A stretch of 64,000 bases of DNA from Glaucostegus cemiculus (taxonomy: Eukaryota), in the NCBI GenBank assembly GCA_976551045.1, contig CDPCPM010000106.1, positions 21,886,001 through 21,950,000 on the forward strand, written 5' to 3'. Position 1 is the stretch's first letter. Each line of letters starts with the position of its first letter. The notes under the pieces were generated by a model, which saw only the letters and a program-made list of their open reading frames with translations, had not been told where the DNA came from and searched no databases. Positions 26,562 to 62,759 of the stretch are shown here, piece after piece. A program made the translations under genes and the position numbers.

Positions 26562-27477
26562 CTGCACTTTCTCCATTCCAGTCACCTACAACTTCCACAA
26601 TGGTAGGCAATGGAGGATACCAGTCTTCTGCCTTTCTACCTCTACCTCGAGAAGGTTGCTGTACTGAGTTACTGTTCCTTTGTGGCAGAGACAGCACACC
26701 TGCCTGATGCCTGAAATGATAACTCACTGGCAGGCCAACTGGCTCACAATCCGGTCTTCTCTTCTCATCACCCTGGGGAACATTGTTTATGTGTTCAGAT
26801 GTTCTTGTATTTGCACCCGAACCACACAAGCTATTGGCTTTGTAAACAGCAAGTTCAGATAGTTCCTGACAAGCTTGATTATCGGCAAAAGAGATTGGCA
26901 ACTGGTCCCTGGAGCAGGGAAGGTTTGAAACTGCCTGATGAAAGTTGAAATTCCTCCAGGAATGTCTGACAGTACCTCCCAGGTCGGAGTTCTGTGCATG
27001 ACAGGAGTTGGTCTCCAGACCACGGCTGCTGGTGTACAAGGGTGCTGCTTCCTCACATTTAATCTCACCATTACTGGATTGCGTTAAGTATCTCTCTTTT
27101 TCACTTATGTCTAGGGATGATTTGATGAAGCTCTTGCAGACACTGATCACATCTGTCATCTGCAAGTAGCTGGCAGCTGACATCACATCAATCACATTTT
27201 GGCTTGTGAGGAGCAATTGCCCTGAATATATGAAATCTAAAATAATTGTAAATGCATCTGCAGAAAAGACGTCAAACGTGGCTACAGTGGGCTGTCCCAC
27301 ATCCTGGGCATTATGCAGAAGCAGCATACGGAAGTAGCCACTGCTGGCAAACAAAACATTACGGTGACCCTTAAAGACTCTTCCCTCCACAATGATACTA
27401 CAGTCACAAAAGATTTCCTGTTTGCGCTGTTCATCTAACTGTTGAAATAATCGGGCTTGGTATGAGGAGATCTCCAT
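26562..27477 (-). CDS. ZBTB8A: Zinc finger and BTB domain protein 8A, first coding exon (BTB/POZ). CDS join(27477-26562,25943-25765,24901-24575) = 1422 nt, 473 aa
   Basis: [49 protein letters not shown]...[17 protein letters not shown], a ZBTB8A-type BTB domain. Acceptor ttgcag|ACTG at 27505; donor GCAG|GTAAGC at 26562. Confidence 0.94.
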
Positions 27478-52800: not shown

Positions 52801-53359
52801 ATCTGGCAGAACAGAAACAAACTCTGTCCCCCTCATATACACTCATTTATTTGTCGATGAGAGGAAATGCACAGAATGAATTCAGCTCGTGGACTGGTGC
52901 CCAGACAACTTTACGCTGGGAAATATTATTTGGCCCAATGCACCAGACACTCTCACACAGTCACGACTATAATCTTGAAGATCTTGAGGAATTTAAAGTG
53001 TTAAATCAAACCTAATATGAGTGTGTGGGTTTTATAAAAAAAAGTGCCACATCGTGGCAATCTAAAACTAACATGGCTGATGTTTCCAAATTCACCAACA
53101 TTTTTTTCAGGACTGTAATAATTTTACTAAGGAGCATATGCTATTGAAGTAGTCAGTTACTCCCAGATTTCTTGTGGAGAACATACTTTCAATCTGAATC
53201 TTAGTATTTATGTCTAGTTTAATCATCCATTGAATCATCACAGGATCCAATGTTTTCTTATAAAAGCTCCTCCTATTTTATGATGCTGTTGTATAATTAT
53301 GATGTTGTATATTTTATGATGCTGTTGTATAATTATTTCTTAGTAAATAAAGATCTCAC

Positions 53360-54293
53360 CTGCATCTTCCCCATACCAATCACTCTGTACATCCATCATA
53401 TTCGAAAAGGTGCCCCCTCCATCCTCTGCACGCCCCCCACGTGAAAAGTGCTGCATGATGTCCTCTTTCCTCTGGACATTTCCCGTCCTCAATAAAACTT
53501 CCAGGAATTGTTTCATCTGATAATTTTCATAGGCTATTTCCATAGCTGGGGCAGACTGCAGTCTCTCCTCGGCCTGATCCGTGGCAGATGGTGTAAACTG
53601 TCGGAACCTGTCAACTGATTCTACTTCATCCTCGTCAAATTCAACTTTAGGTTCTGGAAGCTTAGGTAGCGAGGGAGGGTGCACTTTCTCTGGAGAAAGA
53701 TTCTCTTGATCCTTTTGAGCAAGATCTATGGGATGATAAGTACTGCATTCATTCCAGTTAAGTCCTTTATTATTCTCAGGGCTTGACTCCTTCTGTTGTT
53801 GAACTGATGGAACAGGGTTTGGACATTGATTCCTACAAAAAGATACCGCATCTCCAAAGGCATTTATGTTATTCCCATTCTCCACATGACTGCAGTCATC
53901 ATCCTTTTCATCTTTCACACAGATATCAAGAGAAGATCTAATGTACAACTTACAAAAGCTGACCACATCAGTCATCTGTAGATAACTAGCAGCTGACATA
54001 ACTTCAATAACATTCTTACTGCAGAGGTTCAACTTTCCAGAATAAAGGAAGTCCAGAATAATTGAAAAGGCCTCAGATGTGACAATGTCCAATGAAGCAG
54101 TGCTAGGACGTCCACTGTCATGGATATAGTGAATTAACAAGGCTCTGAAGTAGCCACTGTTAGCAAATAGAATATTCCGGTGAGCTTTGAAGATTCTTCC
54201 CTCCACAATTATACTGCAGTCACAGAAGAAGTCCTGCTTACGCTGCTCATTTAGTTCTCCCAGAAGTTTAGTGTAATACGATGTGATCTCCAT
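53360..54293 (-). CDS. ZBTB8B: Zinc finger and BTB domain protein 8B, first coding exon (BTB/POZ). CDS join(54293-53360,46996-46818,37873-37565) = 1422 nt, 473 aa
   Basis: [77 protein letters not shown]8B-type. Acceptor attttgcag|GCAA at 54332; donor GCAG|GTGAGA at 53360. Confidence 0.95.
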
Positions 54294-54422
54294 CTTTCAT
54301 GAGCAGGACTTTGTCAAAAGGTATTCCTTTGCCTGCAAAATAAACAAAAGGCAAGAACTTTCAAAAATGAACTGTGGATTCCACAATAAGGCAGCAAAAG
54401 AAAGCGTTTCCCACTTGGCCCT

Positions 54423-54868
54423 TGTGTTAAAACAGGACTTGGGTTCTTTTGGGTTCCTTTTGAACGACAGAATTGGTAATGAAGGACACCACAGAAAGTT
54501 TGAGTAACTTTACTTAACAAAACTAAAAACAACTAAACACAAAGGAAACCATAGCTCGAACCACAAACCTAACGCAAATTAAAAGAAACAAGACCAGAAA
54601 ACCAAACTCTCCCACTTAACACTTCCCTGGTAAAAATCAAGCTCACATTTGCATGCAGTTCTCAGTGACAGTCGTTGGCATCCAGTACCAGGCAACGTTG
54701 CATTCTCTGCCACTCGGTCTATCGCCAAAGGGCAGCCCCAGGTACTTCAGCAAGAGGTAAAGGGGCTTAACAGTCGTCAGGCGTTGGCTGTGAACCAACC
54801 CGTGGAGAAGCTCCGAAGGACTCTCTTGCGGGGCGCATCTTTATAGTCAAGGAGGGCTTTGTGGCCCC
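54423..54868 (-). mobile_element. ERV LTR piece A1 (3' half, ending ...TTTTAACACA and followed by AGGGC)
   Basis: Reverse complement aligns with 58824-59273 of the full LTR and directly with 61010-61300. Confidence 0.92.
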
Positions 54869-55404
54869 AGAATGCAAGCCCAGATACTGGTCTGCCAGTT
54901 TCCAGAAACTATTTTGGGAATGAATGTGCTCAAGGGCATGAGTGAAAAAACAAATGTGAGAAAATGTACGTTTGGGATTCGGAAGACCAATGCTTTTACA
55001 ATGGGGACCACTAAATGGGAGCCTTTGGATGAACTTGCACCTGATGGGGTAGTTTTCCACAAACAGTGCAGAATCCCCGGGGGACACAAAGAAATTATGG
55101 AGACCCTTAGGGAACTGGAACAATATGGGGTGGTAAGACCAGCCACATCACCGCACAATAGCCCTGTAGGGCCAGTAAGGAAATTGGATGGGAGCTGGAG
55201 CATGACAGTCGATTATCGATAACTAAACAAGCATGCTCTGTTCCTAGCCTCAGCAGTGCCAGATATTGTTAATCTGGTAATATCAGAGGGAGGACATGAG
55301 CAGTATGCAGTGATTGATCTAATGCCTTTTTCTCAATTCCTTTGGATGCAAGTTCTCAGGATCAGTTTGCTTTCACCTGGGAGGGGAGGCAGTACACATT
55401 TACC
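54869..55404 (+). pseudogene. ERV protease C-terminus / reverse transcriptase N-terminal fragment (stop and frameshifts)
   Basis: PETILGMNVL...KWEPL...KQCRIPGGHKEIMETLRELEQYGVVRPATSPHNSPVGPVRKLDGSWSMTVDYR*LNK...AVPDIV...AFFSIPL...QDQFAFTWEGRQYTFT, collinear with ERV-L-type Pol. Ends before the YxDD motif. Confidence 0.92.
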
Positions 55405-55732
55405 AGCATAACAAAGGATCCCACACCTCTGCTAAACCTTCCCATTGTTTTCAAGAGTCTGATCGGTCACTAGTGCAGAAAAATTCCACTGTTATTGAAC
55501 AGATAAAATTTCCAACCTTCTAGAGGGTGGGTGGCTCCATGAGGGTGTAGCCGAGGAAGGTTTGTGATGGACTCAAACAAAGCCCTGGGCTTTGCTCTGG
55601 GCAAAGTCTGATAGGGAAAATTAACACGCCCCATTCTCTCACCTGGCTGAAGCATACACTGATTGTGTGCAAAGCTGCCCATTCAACTGCATCCAATAAA
55701 TGCTTGGGGCTACCTGTTAAAGTCACATCTTG
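55405..55732 (-). mobile_element. ERV LTR piece A2 (middle/U3 part)
   Basis: Reverse complement aligns with ~58500-58815 of the full LTR. Confidence 0.88.
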
Positions 55733-55733
55733 T

Positions 55734-56140
55734 TGTCACGCAAAAAGTCCAGAACCAAGTTAAAAGTAACCAACAGATCTTTATTGTTTCACGCTAGCAG
55801 AGTTGGGGGGGGGGGGTTACACGGAGGAGCAAACAGACAGTGCTGCTCTTCCCTGCACACGGTCTGACTCAAAGAAATACAGGGTGCTAATTTAGCTTAA
55901 ATACGTTGTTCTCCGGTAGGTGTGCTTGGTCAGCTCGCACTGCCATTGGTCAAAACACAGCTATTGTGTGTAGCCTTACATGTTCTTTACTGTTGGTACC
56001 TTTCATTACACCCTGTACCCTGTTTCCTTCCTACACACCCTGTACCCTGTTTCCTTCGTATCATGCTACGTTCTGCAACTAGCAGATGGCTTACTATTTT
56101 ATAACCATTAACTCTTTGTTCACCAGAGTTCCCTGCCCAT
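55734..56140 (-). mobile_element. Unrelated LTR-like fragment (second family)
   Basis: Minus-strand order CCAAT (55945-55949), TATTTAA (55897-55903), AATAAA (55780-55785), terminus ...CGTGACA. Short tandem repeat at ~56007-56058. No similarity to the main LTR. Confidence 0.55.
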
Positions 56141-56152
56141 TGCCCTCTACAG

Positions 56153-56593
56153 CAGTGGTTTTCAACCTTTTTCATGCTGTGGCCCCCCAGAGCATGTCCT
56201 TGTTAGATGGTGGACCCCCAAAGCCCACAAAATCATTTAACAGTGACGTCACTGTGGTGTAACTGCATGGTAAGTAAGGAATATTATTAAGGCATACCAA
56301 CAATGGCACTCAGTCTCGCTAACACTACAGTGCACAACAGAATAGTAGTGAGTAGTGAACACTACTGACTACACAAATCGAATATTAAGCGGCAGCTTAC
56401 CAGAAGGGAACACGGTCTAAGTCTCTAAGATTGTCGCCTATAACAGATAGAATAGATATGGCCGATTTTCTGAATACTGGAAAACTGAAGCAAGCAAGTA
56501 AGCTCCGTCTTTGTAACAGGCCGCTTTTCCATTCTTTTCTTGGCTTGCTCGCGGACCCCCAGGGGTCCACGGACCACAGGTTGAAAACCTCTG
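56153..56593. mobile_element. Non-autonomous hAT-type DNA transposon (MITE), 441 bp
   Basis: TIRs CAGTGGTTTTCAACCT / AGGTTGAAAACCTCTG (15/16 match). Perfect 8-bp TSD CTCTACAG at 56145-56152 and 56594-56601. Confidence 0.93.
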
Positions 56594-57002
56594 CTCTACA
56601 GAATGGGCTGTACAAAATGGTGTGAGCTGGGTATTTCACATTCCCCATTACCCCCAAGCTTCTAGGTTAATTGAAAGGATGAATGGTCTCTTGAAACAGC
56701 AGATTCGTGTGCTGACCCCCACAGATACACTGCAGGGATGGCATTCTGTGTTATCCTTAGCACTGTATAATCTGAACAACAGACCCAGACCCCTGGGCAT
56801 CCCCATGAGTAGGATAATTCAGTCAGACCCTTCTGTCACATCTGAATCGGAGGTAGAGGAGGAGCAAACTCCCTCAGCCGGACAAAAACTATGGGTGCAT
56901 TGGCCTAACCAAGCCCTGCAACAGGGTGCAGCAATAGCAAGCAGCAATGGCGTTACCTCTTGGGTCATGTTAAGGGGGGGGCTGAAAAACCCATTCGTAT
57001 AA
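56594..57002 (+). pseudogene. ERV integrase C-terminal fragment
   Basis: EWAVQNGVSWVFHIPHYPQASRLIERMNGLLKQQI...LYNLNNRP: region of the catalytic E of the DDE triad, followed by the C-terminal domain. Confidence 0.9.
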
Positions 57003-57189
57003 ATCATGGTAAACTGACTAAAAGAGAATGAAAGGATAATGTCGAGACTGCCCTTTCTGTCATTACAGGGTAACAAATACGGATCAAAAAGCTGGAAAGA
57101 ATGTTGTGAGGAGAGCCGTGATTTTCACGTTTAAGGGGCATTATCAGACTTTGCTTGGACTGACTTTATGTACTCAAATCTTGAATAAG

Positions 57190-58300
57190 ATGCAGATTTT
57201 GCTTAGAATTAGTTTTATCGTATTGTGATGTTATATTGAGGCACCATAGAGATTTACATGTAAATACCTATTTGTATATGTCACATACTTATGCTAAAAG
57301 TGTTGACATAACAAGCTGTTGGGTGTACTGCACATTCCCATACACTCCACAGAGGGTATCCTGCTGTGCCCTGTCCCCCTTAATAGAGCTGAAGCTTTAG
57401 CTTGGTTAGCTTGTGATATAATACTCGCTCATCACTGCCGAAGACACTATCCTCTCCTAACATTACCCAAAATATAACTATCGGCATTTTGAAGGATGGT
57501 ATAATCCTCAGTATGACACTTCCCATATTCCACCATCTATGCCCTGACCAACACTTCAGGTATCAGCTGACCAATAGGCCGCTTTGTTTTCAGAAGTTTA
57601 ATGATTCCGGACCTTGGGTTGGGAATAGCTCTTGTAATGTTGATATCTTTGTGGACCACAGACATAATTTTATACCACCTCCTTTGAATGGTACCTATTT
57701 TATCTGTGGCCATCGGGCCTACTGCTGGTTACCAAATGGGTGACGAGGCTCCTGTTACACGTGTGTGTGCGCTCGCGTTGAAGGGTGCAACAAGAGAGAT
57801 CAGTCAAGTAGAGGGAGCAGTTGCAGTTGTAGTCCCTATATGTATGGTACAGTAAGGGTGATAAAGGAGTTGCAAATTTTAGCCAGATTACTGGAGGAGG
57901 TAGCAAGTGCCACTACTGAAGCTTTAAGTGAAATTAATGCTGAAATGGTAGCTTTGTGGACTGTAGCATTGCAAAACCATATGGCTTTAGATTTTATCCT
58001 CACAAAAAAGGGGGGAACATGTGCAATTGTGGGAAGTCACTGTTGTACCCATGTTCCTGACAAATCAGAAAATATTACAAACTTGGCAGCTCACATCAGG
58101 AAGTCAGTAATGTAATTCCCATCAGACAGAAACTTAAGTCCTTGTGGGCTTGAGCAGCCACCTGGATGGGTTCACTTGGGATTTCCATTACGCAGGGGAT
58201 AACTTCCTTTATGCTTGCTATAATTGCTATTTTCTTATCCTTTTGAATGCTTAAATGCTGCTTACTGTATGCAGATACTTTGTGCCAAGGTGCTGATGCA
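57190..58300 (+). pseudogene. ERV envelope gene (gamma-type), disrupted
   Basis: SU: TSCWVY/..HIPIHS (decayed CWxC) and PLNGTYFICGHRAYCWLPNG*RGSCY. TM: EALSEINAEMVALWTVALQNHMALDFILTKKGGTCAIVGSHCC (ISU + CX6CC). Acceptor-like ctttctgtcattacag at 57068. Confidence 0.9.
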
Positions 58301-58355
58301 CAGCCAACAACCCCTAATGTAAATCTTTAAGCAACAGTGAAATCAAGGGGTGGAT

Positions 58356-59273
58356 TGTGGTGAGATGAAAAACAATCAATGATTTCCCTGTGGCAACAGC
58401 TACCTATGGCTGGATTTAACTAAAGGGTTAAAAGAAGCATCTTTCTCTGTTAGGACTATTTTGTTTTTTCCGCAGGAGTTACTGAAACTGTGTGAAACAG
58501 CAAGACATCAGTGTGGAAGGTAACCCAAGCATTAATTGGATGCTGTTAAACGGGCAGCTTTGCAAAACAATCAAGATCTGCTTCAGCGAGATAATGGGGA
58601 GTGTTAATTTGCCCCATCAGACAAGATCCCAGGGTTTTGTCTGAGATTGTCACAAACTTTTCTCAGCTACACACTCATGGAGCCACCCACCTTCAAGAAG
58701 ATCAGAATTTTTATCTGTTTATTAACAGTGGAATTTTTCTGCATTAATGGCTGACGAGACTCTCAAAAACAACCGGAAGGTTTAGCAAAGGTGTGGAATC
58801 CTTTGTTAAGCTAGGACCAAACAGGGCACGAAGCCCTCCTTGACAATCAAGATATGCCCTGCAAAAGAGTCCTTCGGAGCTTCTCCACAGGTTGGTTCAC
58901 GGCCAACACCTGACGACTGTCAAGCCCCTTCACGTCTTCATGAGTACCTGGGGCTCCCCTTTGGTGATAGATTGAGTGGCAGAGAATGCAACATTGTTAA
59001 GTACTGGATGCTGATAAGTATCACTGAGAACTGCATCCAAACATGAGCTCGATTTTACCAGGGAAGTGTTAAGTGAGACAGTTTGTGTTTTTGATCTTGT
59101 TTCTTTTAATTTGGATTAGGTTTGTGGTTAGAGCTGTAGTTTCCTTAGTGTTTAGTTGTATTTAGTTGTGTTAAATAAAGTTAGTCAACCTTTATGTGAA
59201 ATTGTAATGTCTTTCATTACCGATTCTGTCGTTCATAAGCAACCCAGAAGAACCTGAGTCCTGTTTTAATTCA
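58356..59273 (+). mobile_element. Complete ERV 3' LTR B (918 bp), preceded by a PPT
   Basis: AAGGGGTGGAT (58345-58355) then TGTGG...; AATAAA at 59174-59179; ends ...TTTTAATTCA. Confidence 0.92.
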
Positions 59274-60750
59274 CTGGGGCATATGGCCTCAGGTCCCTCA
59301 CTGGGGCTTAGGAAATCCTGTACACAGACAGGGGACCCTGGCTGTCCCCCTATGGGATAAGCCAACTGGACTTCCATCCACTCTTTGACCCAGATAAAGC
59401 TGTCGCTTGCTTCTCTTGAACCCGAATAGTCTGTTTCAGACTCTCCAGGGAAGAATACAGTGATGCAACTGGGTGTGCGGAAGGCATTACCCCGTGTTCC
59501 CCTGCCCACACTTTTCCTTCCACATAGCATGCATTGTTGTGGTAGTAATGCTGTCAACCTCTTCTCTCGGTATCCTGCCTTCAACAGACGTAGAAACATT
59601 GCTTTGTGAGTAGGTCCCTGAGACAGTTTGACAACTCCTCGCTGGTCTTTCTGAACAGCCTTTGACCAGTCACCACTCCACTGTGCATGTGGAGGTGCTT
59701 CTCGAATAGATTGCAGCTTGCTACTCCCCTCTATCGTGTTTTCCAATGTTCCCATGGCAAACGCTGCCTCCCCTACCGATTTACCCAGCACAGGGGTAGT
59801 TAGTGCTATCACACCCCTATTAATGAACTAGCAGCTGACTGTCCTAGTCTCGCTTGGAGTCCTTGGGTAAAAGGGGCTTCATTTGGGCCGCTCGGCTGAT
59901 CTTCATATATTGTGCCTTTAATGTCCATTTCCCGCAGCCGCTGTACACCTTGTTCGGGTGTGCTCCACTCTGAAGGGCTTACGTGCCAGTCTATCAGGCT
60001 GGGGTAACACTGTCGAATAGCGTGCAGCACCTGGCTCAACAGGGAGCCTGTTGCCAACCCACCCCCGTAAAGCTGCATTGGCCCAGTGGTGTGGGCTGAC
60101 GGATCCCAGCACAACCACTTGGCAGTGGACAATTCAATCTCACCCCCACCTGCATCCCAGATTCGGGCTAGCCAGGCCGTGAGTGACTCTGCTCTCTGCT
60201 GACAAAATCTATCCTGCAAATCCCTCAACTCCGCTCCACTAAAATCCCGAGAAACGACCTGTCATGGCTGGGCATGCTGTTGGGGTGCCTACTGTTCTTG
60301 GTCATCCCAATCCTCATCATTCCCTACTCTCACCACCCCATTCATCCTCATGCTTATTCACTATAGTTTTGAGGGGGCGGATCTGATAAGGAGGATTGTT
60401 ATCGCCCACTCCCTCCATGGGTTGATTTACCTGTCCATCGTCAGGGTCAGACCAGATATCTCCATCCCATGCATCTAGATCCCAGCTTGTACCTTTACAG
60501 GGTCTGGGGTACACCAATCTTATCTGCTATTTCTTTTTGTTTAGCCACTGCAAGCTGGCAGGCGAGCATGGCCCCTGACTGTTTGGCTCTCTCAGCCAGT
60601 TTTAGGCTGTGTGTACCATTTCATGTGCTAAATTCAACTGCCTCCCCTCCTCCTCTAATTCATCCTCCAAGCTGGAAACAACTTCTTCCCCCAAGGCATT
60701 TATTTGTTGCTCCCTATCCTTGAGTGCATCCATAAACATCTAAAGTGCAG
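59274..60750 (-). pseudogene. ERV gag remnant (ERV-L/Fv1-related type), frameshifted, running into the start of pro
   Basis: WDLDAWDGDIWSDPDD; ELRDLQDRFCQQRAESLTAWLARIWDAGGGEIELS; ...GVQRLREM...; ends ...RDLRPYAPV at the LTR B junction. No CCHC knuckle seen. Confidence 0.85.
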
Positions 60751-60989
60751 CACCAGCGGTGCCCTTTTTAAATGGAAAGCCCGCTTCCTGTAACACCTGG
60801 GATACCTCCGATGAGCTATCTTCTCTGGCCCTTGCAACAACTGAGTTCCCCAAGTCTTTGGCTCATGTTTACGTGCTACTAAATTAGCCAGGAGTACCAA
60901 AACCCTCAGAATTATCCAACCAGCTAGGAATAAAACATTCTTCTGGCTTATCTCTGTCTTTCTTTCCCCGAAACATCGTTTAGAAATTA

Positions 60990-61007
60990 ACCCTGCTCGC
61001 AGCGCCA
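60990..61007 (-). promoter_or_regulatory. Retroviral primer-binding site, tRNA-Ser-like
   Basis: TGGCGCTGCGAGCAGGGT 2 nt after the LTR end ...ATACA. Its complement ACCCTGCTCGCAGCGCCA resembles the 3' ends of vertebrate tRNA-Ser(UGA/CGA) as recalled, not searched. Confidence 0.75.
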
Positions 61008-61009
61008 AA

Positions 61010-61300
61010 TGTATTAAAACAGGACTCAAGTTCCTTTGGGTTCCTTTTGAACGACAGAATCGGTAATGAAAGACACCACAATTTCACGAAAAGTTTGAGT
61101 AACTTTATTTAACACAACTAAAAGCAACTGAACACAAAAGAAACTACAGCTCGAACCACAAATCTAATTGAACCCAAATTAAAAGAAACAAGACCAAAGA
61201 CTCAAACTCTCTCACTTAACAGTTCCCTGGTTAAATCAAGCTTACGTTTGCATGCAGTTCTCAGTGATACTTATCGGCATCCAGTACCTAGCAATGTTGC
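61010..61300 (-). mobile_element. ERV 5' LTR piece C (3' portion), directly followed by PBS and gag
   Basis: Aligns with 54423-54700 directly and with 58990-59273 inverted. Confidence 0.9.
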
Positions 61301-61505
61301 GTGAATTGGTATGGAAACCTAAAGTGGGAAGGGAATGCACTCTGACATAATGGTTTAAATGAATTTTGTGACTAAACAAATGAACCTTTTTTTTCTCCTT
61401 GATTATTGTGATACCTAAGAGCTTTTCCATCATTAGCACTATACTCTCAACAAAAAAAGCTTTACTAAACTTGGTCTGGGACTGTATGATGTTGACACCA
61501 AGGGC

Positions 61506-61660
61506 TGTGGTAAGATGAAAAATATTCAATGATTTCCCTGTTGCAACAGCTACCAATGGCTGGATGTAACTGAAAGGGTTAAAAGAAGCATCTTTCTCTT
61601 TAGGACTATTCATTTTTTCCCAGGAGTTACTGAAACAGTGTGAAACAGCAAGACATCACT
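61506..61660 (+). mobile_element. ERV LTR piece D (first ~155 bp), preceded by AGGGC
   Basis: TGTGGTAAGATGAAAAATATTCAATGATTTCCCTG... matches 58356-58512. Confidence 0.9.
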
Positions 61661-62759
61661 GCCTACTTAGGAAGAACATTGTGCTGTGAAATCATGCTTA
61701 TTTGATTTCCTCAGATCAGCATTAATGAACTTAAAGATTACCAGTAAAAGTACAGGCAGTATCAAACCATTGCTGATTTCAGCTCAGAACCCATCAAGGT
61801 TTTCAATCAGGCTCTGAACAAAATAATTTCTAATTAAATTCTAATTCCGGACAAGAAACCTACAAATGCCCACTTAGCACCAGATAAACTAGATGTTTGG
61901 CTTTCATTTTTAGAGTGCTTGAACTGCATGGATAGGTAAAAGTAAAATAAATACATAATCCAATCTTGTAACTCCAGATACAGGATTAAGTAGCATTAAA
62001 TATTGAGTAAACAGATTAAAAATCATTGTTATTGTGTAGCAGTAGTATGTACCGTTAACAAAGTCACTCATAACACTACTACTTTAAATAGTAATATTTT
62101 CATTCATAAATGCCAATCTTACACAATATTGTTTTCAGAAAATGCATTGCTATCTTAAAAAACTGCATTGGCTTTACATGAAGCTATTAGGTGCCATTAA
62201 TTGTGTTATCTCAGTTTCAGATTAAAAACTGATTCAGAAAATATCAGACATCAACAATAACTTAATACTTTTTAACAAATGAACGTCTAGAATTTGAATA
62301 CTATTCATTAGCAGACCTCAGGAAGCTCAACTGGGCTATTGTTTCAGGTTCTGATTTGATGGGCTAATTTTTTTCAAAATAATTGGTTCAAGGCTCTTTT
62401 TATGACGTCACAAATTTTAATAGCGCCGCAAGAACCCTTCAAGAAAAAAAATAAGCTCCCTATAAAATAGCAGGCACATAAAAATAAATTATGCTAAGAA
62501 TTAGACGTTAAACCATTTCAGTGGTTATAACTGTTCTGCTGCAACACAGCACTTAACAGTTCCCAATGAATACTCCAAGAGGTCAGAGCTTAGGGTTACA
62601 ATCTCTAATTCTCTGTAACAGACATCTCTTACAGCTCAATTGTTATCTCATTACCTCGTTAAAAGCCAGAATTACCCATTTGTTTCTGTATTTACCTTTC
62701 CTCCCTTTAGTCAAGGCAGAGATCAAACCGATGCCCACACGTCTTGCCAACCTAATTTT

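What the first reader, a model, noticed from the sequence alone, without database searches (positions are those of the whole stretch)
54423..61660. ERV-S/ERV-L-like (class III, non-foamy) retrovirus with a gamma-type env and tRNA-Ser PBS in an apparent cartilaginous fish
Seen: ERV-L-type Gag motifs (WDxxxWDGDIW; LxxWLxRIWDxG), Pol collinear with ERV-L (RIPGG..EI...SPxNSP..PV.K.DGSW.MTVDYR), PPT AAGGGGTGGA, 5-bp TSD, PBS TGGCGCTGCGAGCAGGGT, env with ISU and CX6CC, and no dUTPase between IN and env. Established: class III pol plus Ser PBS plus gamma-type env is the HERV-S/ERV-S organisation, best known from amniotes; fish ERVs are mostly described as epsilon-, foamy- or snakehead-like. Inference: this could be a poorly described chondrichthyan ERV-S-like lineage, implying deep ancestry or cross-class transmission. 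Almost the whole genome can be reconstructed except the core of RT/RNase H.
Basis: partly seen in the sequence, partly recalled or inferred. Interest (0 to 1): 0.8.

Follow-up and report, generated by a model that had tools for sequence, protein, structure and literature searches.

The report
Scrambled ray class III retrovirus fossil
This is an old, broken and scrambled retrovirus fossil in a ray genome, from a so-far ray-only branch of the ERV-L/ERV-S-type group with a gamma-type envelope; that kind is already reported in frogs and cartilaginous fish, so it likely adds a lineage rather than a new kind of virus.

Summary
The motifs are real. The host is a batoid ray (ZBTB8B exon 97% to a stingray protein). 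The PBS is a perfect 19-nt match to host tRNA-Ser, the family makes 5-bp TSDs, env is gamma-type and there is no dUTPase. The locus is dead and scrambled: gag lies on one strand, pol-env on the other, there are three equally old LTR copies, and the protease, RT, RNase H and integrase-zinc-finger motifs are deleted. It is likely a composite of two integrations. Pol trees place it in a clade of ray ERVs (100/100) inside the MuERV-L/XtERV-S group, not Gypsy or class I. Grouping with XtERV-S or with a mammal/bird ERV-S proxy is rejected; no named HERV-S was available. Novelty is modest: a whale-shark ERV sits beside HERV-L/HERV-S in Xu 2018, clade III ERVs dominate chondrichthyan genomes (Genome Biol 2024), and class III Pol with gamma Env is known (XtERV-S, ERV-SA.a-Ppe). 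What seems undescribed is the ray clade itself, with old and young families (267 LTR-PBS sites in this genome). The scan's earlier notes concern other shark class III ERVs with a different envelope, none on this genome.

The parts
54418..54422 (+). left half of 5-bp target-site duplication
   Evidence: 5-bp TSD is the family rule
54423..54866 (-). LTR piece A (positions 469-918 of the 918-bp LTR), 3' end of the minus-strand provirus
   Evidence: 84% to LTR B; K2P 0.152
54862..55406 (+). protease C-terminal part and RT N-terminal part; lacks DTG and YIDD
55405..55708 (-). LTR piece M (positions 169-457)
   Evidence: 79% to LTR B
55715..56151 (-). foreign insertion: solo-LTR-like repeat of another family
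   Evidence: 40 of 210 candidates scored, all matching; TG...CA ends in 2 of 2 other copies looked at
56153..56593 (.). foreign insertion: hAT-type MITE with 14-bp terminal inverted repeats and an 8-bp TSD
   Evidence: very high depth in 4 of 4 runs; the label hAT is from my own knowledge
56600..57002 (+). integrase C-terminal part; HHCC finger and first half of the core are missing; no dUTPase follows
57030..58340 (+). env, broken by stops and frameshifts; gamma-type TM with ISD and CX6CC; limits approximate
   Evidence: (TLV_coat E 5.8e-5, just under the cut-off)
58345..58354 (+). polypurine tract
58356..59273 (+). LTR B, complete 918-bp LTR; its terminal CA abuts protease N-terminal codons of the opposite strand
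59274..60976 (-). gag (ERV-L type, broken) and first codons of protease
60989..61007 (-). primer-binding site, 19-nt complement of host tRNA-Ser(CGA/TGA) 3' end
61010..61300 (-). LTR piece C2 (positions 633-918), 5' LTR next to the PBS
   Evidence: 87% to LTR B
61301..61505 (+). inverted host flank ending in the other half of the TSD (61501-61505)
   Evidence: no match to viral loci; opposite orientation in 4 of 4 runs laid
61506..61661 (+). LTR piece C1 (positions 1-158), inverted together with the host flank
   Evidence: 91% to LTR B

Best explanation
This is a defective, scrambled class III (HERV-S/L-like, clade Huo) provirus in a ray genome, with a tRNA-Ser primer site, a gamma-type env and no dUTPase, and it likely arose from two integrations of one virus family followed by deletions and inversions. 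The ancestral virus would have worked as a simple retrovirus: priming on host tRNA-Ser, plus-strand priming at the PPT, integration with a 5-bp duplication, and entry through a disulfide-linked SU/TM envelope (inferred from motifs). At this site a first provirus went in on the minus strand just upstream of the ZBTB8B BTB exon (both TSD halves shown). A second copy, or a self-integrated copy, likely went in antisense in its protease region, leaving LTR B's CA end joined to protease codons. The resulting long inverted repeat would then have collapsed, deleting most of one arm (inferred). Later came two foreign insertions and a small inversion at the right end. The locus cannot encode a working protease, RT or integrase (catalytic motifs absent, shown).
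For: Host: ZBTB8B exon 97% to Hypanus, 83% to Callorhinchus, at most 63% to the other named hits among 120 listed. PBS: 19 of 19 nt in 12 of 12 loci called tRNA-Ser. Trees: window family 100/98 and 100/100; all ray rows one clade 98/93 (RT, 17 rows) and 100/100 (RT-IN, 15 rows), inside a 100/100 group with MuERV-L and XtERV-S, which were identified by motif offsets. dUTPase: 0 hits in the window; controls hit. TSD: 5 of 12 solo LTRs match 5/5, 2 match 4/5. Sister loci are collinear, so the window copy is the rearranged one. LTR B ends exactly at CA against protease codons in comparison with 5 sisters. The three LTR ends are equally diverged (K2P 0.12-0.16) and star-like among 20 copies. Contigs from other organism codes share the insertion site and inner junctions.
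Against: No named HERV-S, SnRV or foamy sequence was in the trees, so the position against these rests on proxies and anatomy. Deep branches within the class III group are unresolved. The window row fills only 28% of the RT-IN columns. The two-integration model is not unique: both halves are closest to the same sister loci, A and C2 share 3 rare letters, which 10 of 136 control pairs reach, and the one contig that crosses the LTR B/gag junction has only 26 letters on the LTR side, under the tool's 31-letter rule.
Confidence: 0.78

Rival explanations
1. It is a true member of the ERV-S (HERV-S) lineage that reached rays by cross-class transmission or was inherited from the jawed-vertebrate ancestor.
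For: Ser PBS, gamma-type env and no dUTPase match the ERV-S description in PMC8278194. In the RT-only tree the ray clade is sister to a group holding MuERV-L, XtERV-S and bird/turtle rows, at 92/89, not starred.
Against: AU test rejects ray plus Talpa/Dasypus/galliform rows (p 2.9e-5; group chosen after seeing the tree, and its identity as ERV-S is inferred from tip order). dUTPase is present and absent across several branches, so its absence is a weak marker. No ray row nests in a tetrapod clade.
Confidence: 0.12
2. Same family, but the scramble comes from one provirus: an inversion of pro-to-3'LTR with an LTR duplicated by template switching at or soon after integration.
For: The two inner breakpoints lie only about 180 bp apart in the viral map; pieces C1, M and A tile one LTR with gaps of about 10 bp.
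Against: A and B are no closer than unrelated copies (K2P 0.16, 2 rare letters shared), so a late duplication is excluded; a break exactly at the LTR's CA is the mark of integrase (established knowledge).
Confidence: 0.3
3. The arrangement is an assembly artefact of a repeat-rich region.
For: The 61301-61660 block has the opposite orientation in 4 of 4 other runs, and I have no read of the source species across it.
Against: Duplicated LTR pieces are only 79-91% identical. One contig of organism B spans both the A/pro and RT/M junctions (54820-55450, 41 differences in 637); a contig of organism A spans RT/M with 0 differences, though A may be the source.
Confidence: 0.05
4. It is a Gypsy retrotransposon, an epsilon/gamma (class I) ERV or a foamy virus.
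For: TM is gamma-type; the short pro-RT piece has its best PDB hits to foamy RT at E about 1e-3.
Against: Gypsy and class I rows fall outside the 100/100 group (labels). The pro-RT piece scores 96-115 bits against the nearest class III rows (XtERV-S 97, MuERV-L 96) and 32-40 against class I and Gypsy rows. Ser PBS and gamma TM are unlike foamy viruses (recalled).
Confidence: 0.02

Closest known systems
XtERV-S of Xenopus tropicalis (PMC8278194)
   Same: ERV-L-type gag-pol, Ser PBS, 5-bp TSD, gamma-type TM with ISD and CX6CC; integrase piece 60% identical to its Pol.
   Different: XtERV-S has a dUTPase-like segment after IN (395 aa from HHCC to end against 246-261 in ray Pols); monophyly with the ray clade rejected (p 2.7e-4); XtERV-S is intact and recent.
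Rh_ty_ERV3 of whale shark (Xu et al. 2018, PMC6001957, S2 Fig and S2 Data)
   Same: Cartilaginous-fish ERV listed next to No_fu_ERV1, HERV-L, MuERV-L and HERV-S in clade Huo (tip order read from PDF text); its Gag shows the same motifs in the same order by eye.
   Different: Shark, not ray; its PBS, env and dUTPase status were not visible to me and it was not in my tree.
ERV-SA.a-Ppe (Chen et al., bioRxiv 10.1101/2021.11.23.469661)
   Same: Class III Pol with gamma-type Env in an anamniote. 'Ppe' is probably the sawfish Pristis pectinata, a ray (my inference); a P. pectinata gene model holds a TM piece 70% identical to the sister-family Env.
   Different: Called SnRV-related there; host name and sequence are in supplements I could not see, so identity with this clade is untested.
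HERV-S / ERV-S
   Same: Env present and no dUTPase (as described in PMC8278194); Ser PBS (recalled).
   Different: No named sequence available; the proxy group is rejected as sister-plus-ray clade.
MuERV-L / HERV-L
   Same: Gag type, Pol group, 5-bp TSD.
   Different: ERV-L has a dUTPase after IN and no env.

Membership tests
Class III ERV, HERV-S/L-like group (clade Huo) | Pol groups with ERV-L/XtERV-S, apart from class I and Gypsy | tested here: met
   100/100; references identified
Class III ERV, HERV-S/L-like group (clade Huo) | ERV-L-type Gag without a Cys-His box | tested here: met
   Gag motifs in window; no CCHC in open frames of 18 related loci; the window's own broken gag was not scanned for CCHC
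Class III ERV, HERV-S/L-like group (clade Huo) | 5-bp target-site duplication | tested here: met
   window; 7 of 12 solo LTRs at 4/5 or 5/5
ERV-S / HERV-S | tRNA-Ser primer-binding site | tested here: met
   19/19 nt, 12 of 12 loci tRNA-Ser
ERV-S / HERV-S | no dUTPase | tested here: met
   (window and 31 loci: no hit in the dUTPase part of 7 queries; controls hit)
ERV-S / HERV-S | env present, gamma-type TM | tested here: met
ERV-S / HERV-S | Pol monophyletic with HERV-S | tested here: inconclusive
   no named HERV-S obtainable; proxy group rejected, p 2.9e-5
XtERV-S lineage | Pol monophyletic with XtERV-S | tested here: not met
   AU p 2.7e-4
XtERV-S lineage | dUTPase-like segment after integrase | tested here: not met
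ERV-L | dUTPase after IN and no env | tested here: not met
Snakehead-retrovirus-like ERVs | Pol groups with SnRV | not testable with these tools
   no named SnRV sequence returned
Foamy viruses | Pol groups with foamy viruses | not tested
   no foamy row in the trees; sister Pol scores 146 bits to foamy and 188 to MLV RT in PDB, both distant
Foamy viruses | foamy-type env and pol expressed apart from gag | tested here: not met
   gamma-type TM; gag and pro-pol in one frame in related ray loci
Catalogued Dfam/Repbase family | exact match to a library entry | not testable with these tools
   no such library on hand

The most novel reading that the evidence does not exclude
Rays carry their own deep branch of HERV-S/L-like retroviruses, separate from ERV-L, ERV-S and XtERV-S, that has stayed within batoids, reinvaded the germ line in several waves from more than 100 million years ago to very recently, and may still be spreading; it would be the cartilaginous-fish arm of a lineage as old as jawed vertebrates.
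Probability: 0.25. Interest if true: 0.6.

Novelty: new member of a known kind. Interest (0 to 1): 0.3.

Why it matters
The window copy itself is a dead fossil. Its value is as a marker: it is shared at the same site by several ray-type genomes, so it can date the family, and it points to an apparently unnamed ray clade of class III, gamma-env ERVs with both old and young families. If that clade proves to be the chondrichthyan sister of ERV-L/ERV-S/XtERV-S, it would support the view that class III gag-pol with a gamma-type env is an ancient arrangement rather than a recent recombinant.

Tried and rejected
Viral-contig scan with the sister RT found no relative, so no named SnRV or foamy reference was obtained; cluster look-ups gave no such names either. 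ARAGORN found no tRNA in the window. No RNA holder listed among 13 runs; this says nothing on expression. The J. Virol. version of Chen et al. and Hayward et al. 2015 are not held. A model in which pieces C1, M and A were one solo LTR was considered; it is not needed, since C1 sits with its host flank in the ancestral orientation in other organisms, but it is not excluded. The LTR tree could not pair the three window LTR ends (0 of 17 branches starred). Weak tblastn hits of the after-integrase queries in sister loci lie at query positions 97-150, the integrase C-terminal end, not the dUTPase. P0290 was left out of the IQ-TREE runs as a long branch with odd domains. Literature searches returned nothing on ray ERVs.
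Full report
Observation. LTR B (58356-59273, 918 bp) has four partial copies nearby: 54423-54866 and 55405-55708 on the minus strand, 61010-61300 on the minus strand and 61506-61661 on the plus strand, 79-91% identical. Gag and the PBS lie on the minus strand; the pro-RT piece, integrase piece, env, PPT and LTR B lie on the plus strand. Against a natural frame of a related family the window covers pro-pol residues 523-731 and 1334-1400 only; the protease DTG (478), YIDD (740), RNase H and HHCC (1197) are missing. Two foreign elements sit between the RT and integrase pieces: a solo-LTR-like repeat and a MITE with an 8-bp TSD.

Host. The BTB exon at 53340-54296 is ZBTB8B, 97% identical to a Hypanus stingray protein, 83% to Callorhinchus and at most 63% to the other named proteins among the 120 listed of 602 hits. 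The host is therefore a batoid ray. The element starts 127 bp upstream of that exon.

Family in this genome. LTR B matches 40 of 40 scored candidates (179 found) at 80-86%. Gag and IN-env searches each had 15 candidates. Thirteen loci were fetched; where they hold several parts these are collinear and 66-91% identical to window pieces. Twelve full-length LTR hits had neither PPT nor PBS beside them; 5 had a perfect 5-bp TSD, 2 had 4/5, 4 had 3/5 and 1 had 2/5. A protein search with the pro-RT piece found 3028 candidates, 150 scored, most about 50% identical. Eighteen of these were fetched: they include a younger family with YIDD, CWIC, ISD and CX6CC, with LTR pairs about 99% identical in 4 of 18. 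The LTR-end plus Ser-PBS pattern occurs 267 times, control 0.

PBS and dUTPase. A tRNA 3'-end pattern matched 125 places, control 0. Twelve of 12 fetched were called tRNA-Ser(CGA or TGA) and the PBS pairs with them over 19 contiguous bases. Seven dUTPase-region queries gave no hit in the window and none in the dUTPase part for 31 loci, while 3 of 10 control proteins, those with a Pfam dUTPase, were hit. Ray Pols have 246-261 residues after HHCC against 395-412 in dUTPase-bearing Pols and XtERV-S.

Env. The unbroken TM piece is 57% identical to a catshark Env-like protein, 47% to the sister family, 45% to Hypanus and Pristis proteins and 36% to a Xenopus Env. The sister TM search returned only these 4 proteins of 426 candidates.

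Phylogeny. Of 265 proteins, 195 covered the RT and 99 remained after thinning at 75%. P0146 was identified as XtERV-S Pol and P0141 as MuERV-L Pol by constant offsets of three motifs from Table 2 of PMC8278194 (mouse cluster). Outgroups were labelled by Pfam and PDB. Broken copies entered with X at each break. A FastTree run on 123 rows and an IQ-TREE run on 66 selected rows (P0290 dropped) gave the window family 100/98 and all 17 ray rows, including two Hemitrygon proteins, 98/93. A longer RT-IN tree of 52 rows gave 15 ray rows, now including Narcine, 100/100, within a 100/100 group holding MuERV-L, XtERV-S and amphibian, lungfish, bichir, teleost, turtle, bird and mammal rows; branches among these subgroups are open. 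AU tests reject ray plus XtERV-S (p 2.7e-4) and ray plus the dUTPase-less Talpa/Dasypus/galliform group (p 2.9e-5). That group is only my proxy for ERV-S, was chosen after seeing the tree, and the simple LG+G4 model rejects some true clades. No named HERV-S, SnRV or foamy sequence was in any tree.

How the locus was scrambled. LTR B's terminal CA is joined directly to the first protease codons of the opposite strand, as 5 sister loci show; the plus-strand piece resumes about 180 bp further on. The three copies of the LTR 3' end differ by K2P 0.12-0.16, like LTR pairs of two sister proviruses (0.137, 0.143), and form a star among 20 copies. LTR B is therefore not a late duplicate. The simplest reading is a second, antisense integration, or self-integration, near the time of the family's burst, then collapse of the inverted repeat; this step is inferred, and I put it at about 0.55 against a one-provirus template-switch model. 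Contigs from other organism codes help: one from organism B spans both inner junctions at 54862 and 55405 (41 differences in 637); contigs from D and E bridge the host/LTR junction at 61505 by 38-39 letters, B by 27; C and D reach 27 letters into LTR A from the host side, under the 31-letter rule. In 4 of 4 runs laid the 61301-61660 block has the opposite orientation, which restores a direct TSD. That inversion is late, or a local assembly error; I have no source-species read across it.

Age. With d about 0.14, t = d/2u gives about 140 My at 0.5e-9 per site per year (rate assumed for catshark in PMC10699275), about 320 My at 2.2e-10 (assumed in PMC4422223) and about 32 My at the mammalian 2.2e-9 quoted there. 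A shark pedigree rate of 7e-10 per generation (PMC10587355) favours the slow end. No ray rate was found; tens of millions to over 100 My is the safe statement.

What is known. [quoted passage not shown] PMC11089739 (passages) counts 2843 clade III against 2018 clade I RT loci in 6 chondrichthyan genomes. The bioRxiv paper 10.1101/2021.11.23.469661 (parts 1-2 of 6, section 8, passages) reports gamma-type Env ERVs in 6 cartilaginous fish and ERV-SA.a-Ppe with class III Pol; its supplements, which would name the host and give the sequence, were not seen and may show this very clade. PMC8278194 (passages, part 3 of 8) describes XtERV-S and notes that ERV-S lacks dUTPase. PMC10536682 and PMC12690878 were seen as passages. 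Searches found no paper that names a ray clade of HERV-S/L-like ERVs; subscription journals, Dfam and Repbase were not searchable.

Verdict. The observation largely holds, the strict ERV-S label is unproven, and the kind is known. The new element is an apparently unnamed ray clade with old and young families, of which this locus is an old, scrambled, orthologously shared member. Interest 0.3.

Noticed in passing
G000, loci L014-L020, L031 (family level): A younger sister family with the same Ser PBS, about 670-bp LTRs (pairs 90-99% identical) and gamma-type env. Gag and pro-pol run in one open frame in 5 of 6 loci L014-L019, unlike XtERV-S, which has a stop between them.
   Followed up: partly
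L015-L019: A subfamily with an in-frame internal deletion of RT connection and RNase H (108 residues from YIDD to HHCC against 457); likely non-autonomous yet recently amplified.
   Followed up: partly
L025, L026, L028: A further old ray family, sister to the window family; the site after its apparent LTR end differs from the Ser PBS, not identified.
   Followed up: no
window 56153-56593: hAT-type MITE with 8-bp TSD, very abundant in all four runs laid.
   Followed up: partly
window 55715-56151: Solo-LTR-like repeat of another family at the M/IN junction, without a visible TSD.
   Followed up: partly
window 53340-54296 and 27095-27437: ZBTB8B BTB exon and a 69% identical paralogous BTB exon further along the window, probably ZBTB8A (the second name is recalled).
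   Followed up: no
protein P0290 (unnamed Logan record): One 1374-aa frame with retroviral protease, RT, thymidylate kinase, RNase H, thymidine kinase and dUTPase, without integrase.
   Followed up: no
protein P0429: A sawfish gene model named TBX22-like begins with a retroviral TM piece related to this clade, probably a chimeric annotation.
   Followed up: no
protein P0132: A barn-owl-labelled Pol falls inside the amphibian/lungfish/teleost group and clusters above 75% with a lungfish protein; contamination or transfer, untested.
   Followed up: no
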